A stretch of 64,000 bases of DNA from contig OZ024741.1 in the NCBI GenBank assembly GCA_964016885.1, positions 28,954,001 through 29,018,000 on the forward strand. Direction: 5' to 3'. A program made the translations under genes and the position numbers. This DNA is from Eledone cirrhosa. Taxonomy: Eukaryota. The notes under the pieces were generated by a model. The model had not been told where the DNA came from and did not search any database. It worked only from the letters and a program-made list of their open reading frames with translations. Below, piece after piece: positions 42,366-44,340 of the stretch. How positions within the stretch are numbered: position 1 is the first letter of the stretch; each line of letters begins with the position of its first letter.

Positions 42366-44340
42366 AGGAAATATCCTACTGTCCAGCTCCCATTAGCGGA
42401 ACCAGCAGGAGACACCGCCGCTCACGCAATGTAACATGGTTCAATCCTCCCCACAACGCAGAGGTGACAACTCCCATCGGGAAACTATTCTTTAGGCTCA
42501 TTGAAAAACACTTCCCATTACAACACCGCTACCACAACATAATTAACAAAAATACCATCAAACTCTCTTACAGCACTACACCAAACTTCGCACAAAACAT
42601 CGTCTCCTCTAACAACAACAAACTCAAGCCCGATGGCAGAAATAACCTAAATAGCAGTGGAGAACCGACCAGGAGGTGTAACTGCCCGGATAGATCTATT
42701 TGCCCACTCGACAATAGATGCAGAGACCGTAATGTGATCTACCAGTGCAACGTGAGGACGGATACCTCCAACAAAGCCTATATAGGACTTACCGCATGTG
42801 ACTTCAAGACCCGGCTATACCAACATAGACATACCTTCCGAAACCCGGCCCGGCGTCACGCCACTACACTTTCGGGCCACATATGGGACCTCAAGGACAA
42901 CAACATCACCTATGATCTCACTTGGAGATTACTGTCCAGAGCCAATTCTTACACGGGAGGACGCCGTCCGTGCAATTTATGCTCGGAGGAAACTTTACAA
43001 ATGCTGTTTTCGACGGACCAACTCCTAAACAAGAAAGATGAACTGGTCACTGCATGTAAACATAGATTGCGTAGGACTTACCTCGCCCTCAAACCCCATA
43101 ATGACCCGGGGGGGGGGGGGGTAGACTAGGGCTATAACACCCCACTTGCCGATTTTGCAATGGGTAACCCCTGCTTGCCAAGGAAGACGTAAGATCTTCT
43201 TTGTATTCTTTTATCGCTTCCTTTATTTCCTTCCCTCCTCTCTCCTTAGTCCTTCTACCCCAGCTCTTCTCCTTTGTCGGCGTCTTTTCTCGCCCACCCG
43301 AGGCTGCCCTTTGGCCCCATGTAGCCTTAGTACCCCCCCCCCTCCCCTAGTCTATGATAGATTTGGCGGACTCCGCCTTTTATAGCAGTTGGCTTAGACC
43401 CCGGATACTTGCCCCCTTTTTCCGACCGCTCCCACTATTCTCTGTGCCCTCTATATTTCTTAGTGGCACTTATGCCTTATTTTTTCGTTTCAGTATTTCT
43501 TGCTTCGCTTTTCTTCTGGGCGGGGTGGATTCTGAATTTATTTCTCCGTATTCTACCTTTATTTCGTACGAACTTTCATGTAGCTTGTTTTAGATCTTTT
43601 AGAGTTAGCATTAGTATATATTTTTCTCGGGACTCAGAATTATTATCTCGTACAAGTTCACTTTGCTGCACTGGGTCGTTGCTGGCCCGGGATGGAAACC
43701 TTTATTGTTTATTTCGTGGTAGTTTCTTTAGTATTTTGGCCCCTTTTGTTGACCCGTCACCGTATCATTTACGTACTTATACCTCTTAAAAGGGTCCTTG
43801 CCTCTTCCGTCCCACCTAGTTCTTTTACTTATTTCGTTATTTCTTTCTTTATTTATTTCTTTACTTCTTTCTTTCTTTCTTTATTTTATTCTAGCCAAAC
43901 AATAGCCTGAGACCTAGGTCGTAGAATTTAATTTACTTTACTTTTTTCTTTACACTTATTTGCTTTTCTTCACTCTCAGTATTTTTTCTTTCTTATATAT
44001 TTCTACCCCCCATTGTTCTACCTACCGTTCCGACTTCCTCCCCCTCCCCCTCCCCTGTATCTTCTTTGACCTCATGCCCAGCTGTAGCTGGCACTACCAA
44101 CGCTTGATTGGGTCTACTCCACCCCCTCCCCTCTTTCTCCTACTGGCAGGTTTAGCCACCATCTCCCCTACTAATTTGCAACCACAGAATTACTACTGAT
44201 TTTTGACAATCACTTTGACCATATATGGAATTACCCCTTGAGAAGACCGGCTATTTAAATACCAGGATAAATTTTCATTTAGTCCAGAATTAGCCGTCGA
44301 AACGGCTTGAGCTCAGCTGTCGGGGTCTTACTGGTTCCTA
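42366..44340 (+). mobile_element. Penelope-like retroelement, inverted copy (right arm)
   Basis: Reverse complement of 40036-42006 with a handful of substitutions. ORF 42464..43129 (GIY-YIG). Ends in (TA)n. Confidence 0.93.
44233..44326 (+). ncRNA. Hammerhead ribozyme, U3-A8 core variant
   Basis: ACCCC-TTGAGAA-GACCGGCTA...TAGCCGTC-GAAA-CGGCT-TGAGCTC-AGCT-GTC-GGGGT. Stems I, II and III all pair; GUC cleavage triplet ends at 44321. Confidence 0.78.

What the first reader, a model, noticed from the sequence alone, without database searches (positions are those of the whole stretch)
44233..44326. Coding Penelope element carries a non-canonical U3-A8 hammerhead
Seen: ACCCC-TTGAGAA-stem II (GACCGGCTA/TAGCCGTC, ~37-nt loop)-GAAA-stem III-GTC-GGGGT near the PLE 3' end, in both arms. 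The related copy at 35.57 kb converts a stem III G-U into G-C (GCC vs GCT), consistent with pairing. Established: C3-G8 is a Watson-Crick tertiary pair in the hammerhead core, U3-A8 is a tolerated compensatory variant, and PLE pseudo-LTRs commonly hold HHRs. Inference: such elements would be scored as HHR-less by CUGANGA pattern searches.
Basis: partly seen in the sequence, partly recalled or inferred. Interest (0 to 1): 0.8.

Follow-up and report, generated by a model that had tools for sequence, protein, structure and literature searches.

The report
Penelope hammerhead with drifting core pair
A young, abundant jumping gene ends in a hammerhead self-cutting-RNA motif whose usual C-G core pair is U-A, a published variant, but its ancestors in this genome multiplied for a long stretch with a mismatched C·A pair predicted to cripple cutting, so fast self-cleavage is likely not needed for it to jump.

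Summary
The motif is real. It is a type I hammerhead (UUGAGAA core, GUC at 44319-44321) in both arms of a head-to-head, 5'-truncated insertion of a young Hydra-like Penelope retrotransposon. U3-A8 in Penelope-element hammerheads was published in 2014, and this scan noted it earlier in this genome. The compensatory reading fails within the family. On one scaffold the genome holds 4,243 U3-A8, 1,511 C3·A8, 39 U3·G8 and 9 C3-G8 copies. Two trees give a ladder U·G, U-A, C·A, U-A (window = youngest). C·A sits on internal branches (AU p<1e-4) while the ORF was under purifying selection. The other 12 core positions never changed between subfamilies. A natural C·A hammerhead was reported inactive in vitro. 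Nearly all insertions examined were copied through the uncleaved site. About 54,000 half-ribozyme matches exist; 80 of 100 sampled stub arms stop 35-45 nt upstream of the cut, at an initiator-like motif inside loop II, likely the transcription start. The 35.57-kb copy is such a stub, lacks positions 3 and 8, and its G-C is the ancestral state. Cleavage and expression are untested.

The parts
44227..44338 (+). Type I hammerhead motif of the right arm, with distal and proximal helix I, core, helix II with insert, helix III
   Evidence: sequence; fold; null test
44238..44244 (+). Core U3 U4 G5 A6 G7 A8 A9 (TTGAGAA)
   Evidence: register matches published Hydra-clade CUGANGA-G motifs
44319..44321 (+). 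GUC triplet; predicted cleavage after C17 (44321)
   Evidence: cleavage itself untested
44308..44314 (+). Loop 3 TGAGCTC with self-complementary GAGCTC, unchanged across subfamilies; predicted dimer interface
   Evidence: 0 of 7 sites variable; cofold of helix III segment -26.3 vs -4.9 kcal/mol per monomer
44252..44289 (+). Loop II insert with TATA-like TATTTAAA (44252-44259) and initiator-like T(T/C)AGTC (A at 44281, 41 nt upstream of the cut); inferred core promoter
   Evidence: 5' ends of stubs peak at -40/-41; 44277-44289 invariant across subfamilies except T/C at 44280; TATA and Inr consensus recalled, not from a call
42366..44341 (+). Right arm: 5'-truncated PLE (ORF residues about 468-717, 1.1-kb 3' UTR, hammerhead), ending about 19 nt after the cut site at (TA)n
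39956..42363 (-). Left arm: 5'-truncated PLE (ORF residues about 350-717, UTR, hammerhead) plus an 80-nt tail ending about 100 nt after the cut site at (TA)n
   Evidence: arms 99.4% identical over 1,977 nt
40038..40149 (-). Hammerhead motif of the left arm, same U3-A8 core
35427..35613 (.). Palindromic stub of an older subfamily: two head-to-head copies of the 3' half of the ribozyme, one with the tail; lacks the UUGANAA half

Best explanation
The motif is a type I hammerhead with a U3-A8 core at the 3' end of a young, protein-coding family of Hydra-like Penelope retrotransposons, and it likely cleaves slowly or only in special conditions, because its lineage multiplied through U·G, U-A and mismatched C·A states at positions 3 and 8. 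Shown: the full unit is 3,531 bp with a 717-aa ORF; insertions sit in (TA)n as head-to-head pairs ending about +19 and +100 nt past the predicted cut; those ends require templates that were not cut at C17; positions 3, 7 and 8 changed between subfamilies while the other 12 core positions did not. Inferred: transcription likely starts inside loop II (about 44281), so the RNA's 5' end carries only half a ribozyme and whole ribozymes occur only at read-through junctions. The RT-endonuclease would nick (TA)n and start reverse transcription internally at the +19 and +100 sites, as shown for the anole Poseidon element. Priming next to the 5' end would give the tens of thousands of half-ribozyme stubs, and priming at a downstream junction would give long copies. 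Selection likely keeps the fold and a residual, possibly dimer- or protein-assisted, cleavage that trims some read-through RNA, but not a fast core.
For: Counts on one scaffold: U3-A8 4,243, C3·A8 1,511, U3·G8 39, C3-G8 9; reversed-pattern controls 0. Core left free: 6,044 matches, first 100 rows 76 U-A, 23 C·A, 1 other (counted by eye). Contigs of runs X3/X4 show other letters above 3% within the core only at position 3 (C, 24-27% of depth) and position 7. Ladder in a flank tree of 102 rows and an ORF tree of 38 rows; AU tests reject U3-A8 as one side (p 6.8e-5) and U3 as one side (p 4.7e-8). C·A subfamily: 96 of first 100 of 180 rows; oldest subfamily G8 in 20 of 26. Trunk codon changes 61 synonymous: 22 non-synonymous, 20:6 and 22:6 across the C·A phase, versus 176:309 on tips. 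Other core sites 0 of 12 variable versus 30 of 62 loop and flank sites (Fisher p 0.001). Stub ends: 80 of 100 arms at -35 to -45; 3'-half 22-mer 54,367 matches. Frangieh 2024 (PMC11167929): C3G or G8C abolish cleavage but not insertion in vitro, and uncleaved RNA is the main template. Schistosoma W-element paper (PMC8490949): a natural CUGANAA hammerhead was inactive.
Against: No cleavage or RNA data: no RNA holder was listed. Within the family the helices are conserved (92% of cells paired) but show no covariation above shuffles. Most copies were found with patterns that fix U4, G5, A6, A9 and helix II, so the 0-of-12 figure is partly circular for the 5' half; reduce but do not remove this. 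The promoter reading rests on recalled consensus motifs; a non-templated G opposite a cap was not enriched (5 G among 47 rows flagged as ending near -41, some of them misflagged full copies), and the TATA-like word is weak in the oldest subfamily. The stub sample could not show ends at the cut site, because anchors had to hold -29 to -8. One long copy (L014) begins at -1/+1, compatible with a cleaved template. The oldest U·G subfamily is small (20 G8 matches) and has only 2 rows in the ORF tree; its place as oldest rests on terminal branch lengths, with no outgroup.
Confidence: 0.6

Rival explanations
1. Efficient compensatory ribozyme: U3-A8 restores the tertiary pair, and cleavage after 44321 is a needed step of the cycle; C·A subfamilies were complemented in trans, in mixed dimers or by the protein, or C·A keeps enough activity in this scaffold.
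For: The largest (4,243) and youngest subfamilies are Watson-Crick U-A, and the lineage returned to U-A after C·A. The other core positions are fixed. The predicted share of the hammerhead fold is highest for U-A in 14 of 14 natural scaffolds. U3-A8 is called active in vitro in Perreault 2011 (citing a paper I could not open). L014 starts at -1/+1.
Against: C·A persisted over several supported internal branches with 1,511 copies. Copies end beyond the cut site. None of 17 other internal 5' ends of long copies lies at +1. Contig depth shows no rise at the cut site (a weak measure). Core mutants do not block insertion in the anole element.
Confidence: 0.22
2. Dead ribozyme kept as a structural or DNA signal: cleavage was lost with G8, and the sequence is conserved as promoter DNA or as the RNA fold bound by the RT.
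For: C·A reported inactive in a natural hammerhead. Loop II and loop 3 sequences with no catalytic role are also invariant. Canonical C3-G8 never amplified.
Against: Change falls where active hammerheads allow it (N7 took all four letters) while U4, G5, A6, A9, GAAA, U16.1 and C17 stayed fixed on both sides of the inferred start site. A pure DNA signal would not predict that pattern.
Confidence: 0.13
3. The -35 to -45 ends are reverse-transcriptase stalls at the apical hairpin in loop II, not a transcription start. This rival concerns the promoter step only.
For: A hairpin is predicted at 44265-44286. The ends spread over about 10 nt. No cap signature.
Against: The longer arm of head-to-head pairs peaks at -40/-41 (17 of 36), on an invariant initiator-like word about 30 nt below a TATA-like word. 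Two long ORF-bearing copies also begin at -40 and -44. The hairpin is only about 8 bp and AU-rich.
Confidence: 0.3

Closest known systems
U3-A8 minimal hammerheads of Schistosoma mansoni Cercyon PLEs (Cervera and De la Pena 2014, PMC4209133; parts 1-2 of 4 of the text read, 2 supplement files searched, 1 not searchable)
   Same: Type I hammerhead in the pseudo-LTR of a PLE; U3-A8 core; long helix II; G10.1-C11.1; palindromic loop 3 suited to dimers; low activity expected.
   Different: Here helix III has 6 bp, loop II holds a 37-nt insert, the host element is Hydra-like, and the family history includes amplified C·A and U·G states, which the parts read do not describe.
Hydra clade of C-terminal EN+ PLEs (Craig et al. 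2021, PMC8557442; passages, section 11, supplement parts 1-2 and searches read)
   Same: RWR for RWK, DKT, CxCX5C linker, CxxC and CxH around E and N, (TA)n targets, inverted 5'-truncated copies with a one-sided tail; protein matches Hydra sequences by eye.
   Different: All 26 Hydra rows (25 families) in File S2 have CUGANGA, loop II of 3-10 nt and loop III of 1-3 nt; this unit is 3.5 kb rather than under 3 kb and its tail is about 80 nt rather than 30-40.
Poseidon element PAc of Anolis (Frangieh et al. 2024, PMC11167929; parts 1-2 of 4 read)
   Same: Two internal RT start sites that define the tail; AT-rich targets; uncleaved RNA as template; hammerhead core mutants do not block insertion in vitro.
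   Different: PAc keeps C3-G8 and was tested in vitro; here the evidence is genomic and evolutionary, in another clade.
Natural core variants of hammerheads (Perreault et al. 2011, PMC3088659, passages; Schistosoma W-element candidate 4, PMC8490949, passages)
   Same: U3-A8 occurs in nature; a CUGANAA core occurs in nature.
   Different: The CUGANAA case was a single inactive candidate, not a state carried by an amplifying lineage.

Membership tests
Type I hammerhead ribozyme | Three helices around the core, open at helix I | tested here: met
Type I hammerhead ribozyme | U4 G5 A6 N7, A9, G12 A13 A14, A15.1-U16.1, H17 | tested here: met
Type I hammerhead ribozyme | Watson-Crick pair between positions 3 and 8 | tested here: inconclusive
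   U-A is possible in the window copy, but the family shows no covariation and holds 1,511 C·A copies
Type I hammerhead ribozyme | Match to an Rfam hammerhead model | tested here: not met
   none among the 150 of 265 rows shown
Type I hammerhead ribozyme | Loop 1 - loop 2 tertiary contact | not testable with these tools
   a bulged helix I is present; loop II is an atypical 37-nt insert
Type I hammerhead ribozyme | Self-cleavage after H17 | not testable with these tools
   no RNA run listed
Minimal hammerhead (min-HHR) of metazoan PLEs | Helix III absent or 1-2 bp | tested here: not met
   6 bp in the window, 5 in older subfamilies
Minimal hammerhead (min-HHR) of metazoan PLEs | Palindromic loop 3 allowing dimers | tested here: met
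   GAGCTC; cofold (prediction)
Hydra-clade PLE | Single ORF with RT and C-terminal GIY-YIG-type endonuclease | tested here: inconclusive
   717-aa ORF with YRDD and VIY..YIG motifs by eye; no Pfam or PDB match for P0001 or its alignment beyond 1 of 36 weak GIY-YIG; colinear by eye with published Hydra proteins
Hydra-clade PLE | RWK, DKT, CxCX5C linker, CxxC and CxH flanking E and N | tested here: met
   LRWR, SDKT, CNCPDRSIC, CNLC, CKH in P0001 against section 11; RWR is a conservative variant
Hydra-clade PLE | Insertion into (TA)n | tested here: met
Hydra-clade PLE | Canonical hammerhead and length generally under 3 kb (descriptive traits) | tested here: not met
   variant core; 3,531-bp unit
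Hydra-clade PLE | RT tree placement among named Hydra elements | not tested
   named sequences were seen only in a paper supplement; assignment is by motifs

The most novel reading that the evidence does not exclude
An autonomous Penelope-like lineage kept transposing in vivo through a long phase with a C3·A8 mismatch in its hammerhead, a core reported to be inactive, and its promoter lies inside the ribozyme's loop II. Each transcript would then begin with half a hammerhead that can be cut only by pairing with the enzyme half from a downstream junction, a natural split ribozyme that could yield unit-length or circular RNA. The genome preserves an ordered allelic series (U·G, U-A, C·A, U-A) that tests directly whether PLE hammerheads must cleave.
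Probability: 0.3. Interest if true: 0.75.

Novelty: new variant of a known kind. Interest (0 to 1): 0.5.

Why it matters
The role of hammerheads in Penelope-like elements is open: Craig 2021 says it is unclear and may be parasitic, and Frangieh 2024 found core mutants harmless for insertion in vitro. This family gives evolutionary evidence from a living genome: the 3-8 pair was broken along an active, protein-coding trunk while the rest of the core stayed fixed. It supplies natural, ordered alleles for rate measurements. It also shows that a U3-A8 descriptor still misses about a quarter of copies (C·A), and that stub ends can point to a start site inside a ribozyme. The U3-A8 swap alone is ordinary.

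Tried and rejected
Rfam scans: no hammerhead match shown. Pfam and PDB sequence searches did not name the ORF. No RNA holder listed; runs X1-X5 are contigs of unknown kind, X1, X3 and X4 are one sample and may be the assembly's source; X5 (another organism) did not cover the core. Other core registers (first C as C3; GA at 44245-44246 as G8-A9) were rejected because they break U4-G5-A6 or the G10.1-C11.1 pair seen in published Hydra motifs. A hidden C3-G8 subfamily was rejected: 7 rows need 7 changes in the flank tree, 2 of 100 rows in their own subfamily, and one insertion has C-G in one arm and C·A in the other (L051). Two C-G rows do sit at the base of the C grade in the ORF tree. A 3' splice site at TTTAG or CAG in loop II was considered; stub junctions show no upstream exon. 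Cap-G signature inconclusive. and the folding used a structure shifted by one column and are void (redone). Rows dropped: 3 of 170 mis-cut and 39 lacking 230 nt of upstream homology, then 26 young copies thinned; 22 of 60 young ORF rows thinned; 12 of 167 copies unassigned or removed and 5 reassigned by hand after seeing the trees; 18 of the first 100 places skipped because they coincided with or partnered whole-ribozyme copies. Literature: searches found no report of an amplified C3·A8 PLE hammerhead. Lunse 2017, Przybilski and Hammann 2007, Nelson and Uhlenbeck 2008, Martick and Scott 2006 and a guessed id for a simulation paper were not held, so rate constants for 3-8 variants were not seen and these papers may bear on novelty; supplements of the bioRxiv retrozyme preprint (part 1 of 5 read) were not opened.

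Full report
Observation. The sequence at 44233-44326 is as described. It forms a type I hammerhead: helix I (5 bp, plus a distal 4-6 bp reaching the element's end), core TTGAGAA, G10.1-C11.1, a 6-bp helix II around a 37-nt insert, GAAA, a 6-bp helix III with a palindromic loop, and GUC with C17 at 44321. The mirror copy lies at 40038-40149. My descriptor found only these two in the window and none in 100 shuffled windows. The fold ties with the minimum-energy structure for 44216-44342 but is not unusually stable, and Rfam does not score it.

The element. Window 39956-44341 is one insertion in (TA)n made of two 5'-truncated arms set head to head, 99.4% identical over 1,977 nt. Neither arm holds a whole ORF. 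A protein search of the own genome scored 111 near-identical matches, many in 784-codon open frames. A tandem array gives the unit: 3,531 bp, four units differing by 0-1 nt, with a 717-aa ORF. The protein has the motifs that Craig et al. 2021 list for the Hydra clade and matches their Hydra proteins by eye. Pfam and PDB did not name it, and no tree with named Hydra proteins was built. One arm ends about 19 nt after the predicted cut and the other about 100 nt after it, the one-sided tail typical of PLEs.

Is U3-A8 new? No. Cervera and De la Pena 2014 report it in Schistosoma PLE hammerheads and Perreault 2011 in other natural hammerheads. It is not in the published Hydra list, where all 26 rows are CUGANGA. 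Among 77 metagenome loci encoding relatives I read 23 plus-strand C3-G8 motifs and one U3-A8, so C3-G8 is the likely ancestral state of the clade. This scan had already noted U3-A8 in a Hydra-clade element of this genome.

Is it compensatory here? With the same flanks the genome holds 4,243 U3-A8, 1,511 C3·A8, 39 U3·G8 and 9 C3-G8 matches. These count arms, not insertions. Leaving the seven core letters free gives 6,044 matches, and 99 of the first 100 rows are YTGANAA with N taking all four letters. In contigs of two runs, laid without regard to the core, only positions 3 and 7 show other letters above 3%. C·A is inherited, not decay: it is in both arms of many insertions and in 96 of the first 100 rows of one subfamily.

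History. A tree of the ribozyme and 230 nt upstream, with columns 3, 7 and 8 masked (102 rows), and a tree of the last 750 nt of the ORF (38 rows) both give a ladder. It runs from a small U·G subfamily with the longest tips (20 of 26 G8), through U-A, then a C·A grade over several supported nodes, to U-A again with the window's subfamily youngest. AU tests reject grouping the U-A rows (p 6.8e-5) or all U3 rows (p 4.7e-8); the groups were named after the first tree. C·A therefore lies on internal branches under any rooting. Majority codon changes along the trunk are 61 synonymous to 22 non-synonymous, and 176 to 309 on tips, so the protein was under selection through the C·A phase. Between subfamilies, position 3 changed twice, position 8 once and N7 at least three times. 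The other 12 core sites did not change, 5 of 40 helix sites changed (two probably an alignment shift), and 30 of 62 loop and flank sites changed. That contrast is partly circular for the 5' half. No double-sided covariation above shuffles was found within the family. A natural CUGANAA hammerhead did not cleave in a published assay, and single 3/8 mutants abolish cleavage of the anole PLE ribozyme without blocking insertion. Folding predictions put the hammerhead share highest for U-A and lowest, or tied lowest, for C-G in all 14 natural scaffolds tried. C3 appears to let the C run slip onto GUCGGGG, and G8 would create a word complementary to loop 3 (my inference). This may explain why canonical C-G never amplified here; it is a prediction only.

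Where the RNA starts. The 3' half of the ribozyme has 54,367 exact matches to a 22-mer, about nine times the 5' half. In 60 loci from the first 100 listed places (18 places at whole-ribozyme copies skipped), 80 of 100 arms stop 35-45 nt upstream of the cut, with a mode at -40/-41. The 35.4-35.6-kb palindrome is such a stub. Position -41 is the A of T(T/C)AGTC, invariant across subfamilies, about 30 nt below TATTTAAA; I recall these as initiator- and TATA-like. D. virilis Penelope starts in its pseudo-LTR from an internal, TATA-less promoter. Two long copies also begin at -40 and -44, none of 17 internal 5' ends is at +1, and one further copy, L014, begins at -1/+1. A cap signature was not found, so an RT stall at the loop II hairpin remains a live rival.

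Mechanism. Most likely the element is transcribed from inside loop II and reads through tandem units. Its RT-endonuclease would nick (TA)n and prime internally at +19 and +100, copying through an uncut ribozyme. Priming near the 5' end would give stubs, and priming at downstream junctions long copies. The ribozyme is probably slow, which the cycle tolerates or favours; the fixed core argues for some residual cleavage, perhaps as a dimer through GAGCUC or with protein help. Shown steps are the anatomy, counts, history and ends. Transcription start, priming and any cleavage are inferred.

Verdict. The U3-A8 claim alone is a new member of a known kind. What is new to my searches (four key papers not held) is the amplified C·A trunk and the stub ends inside loop II, which make the function of PLE hammerheads testable with natural alleles. 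Interest 0.5.

Noticed in passing
window:26698-29827 (+): Overlapping frames with a weak endonuclease match, RVT_1 and zf-RVT: a LINE-type retrotransposon.
   Followed up: partly
window:15557-18697 (+): Broken LINE-like element: endonuclease and RVT_1 pieces, followed by a frame with weak C2H2 zinc-finger matches.
   Followed up: partly
window:46766-46881: A near-perfect 114-nt inverted repeat, scored by Rfam as a sub-threshold microRNA precursor; possibly another palindromic stub or a MITE.
   Followed up: no
L039-L040 (G000:C1:437.198-437.216 Mb): Head-to-tail array of four 3,531-bp units differing by 0-1 nt, with five ribozyme motifs; fits rolling-circle or read-through copying from one template.
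   Followed up: partly
L020:3944-4100, L023:3937-4100, L032:36-151, L033:3798-3931: Stubs of other subfamilies inserted into the (TA)n run beside long copies, so insertions nest at earlier insertion sites.
   Followed up: no
L165:2091-2150; L144 minus strand near 112: Metagenome Hydra-like loci with a short U3-A8 hammerhead (L165) and a U3·G8 one (L144), suggesting separate drift at positions 3 and 8 elsewhere in the clade.
   Followed up: no
window:44292-44307: AGCCGT-CGAA-ACGGCT forms a rival hairpin that hides GAAA; it is the predicted fold of RNA starting at -41 and is unchanged across subfamilies.
   Followed up: partly
window:43130-44226; L053, L120, L210: The 3' UTR grew from about 650-950 nt in old subfamilies to 1,100-1,200 nt in young ones.
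   Followed up: no
window:1-2000, 9400-11900, 51400-54500: Long microsatellite and minisatellite arrays that give spurious open frames and sub-threshold microRNA matches.
   Followed up: no
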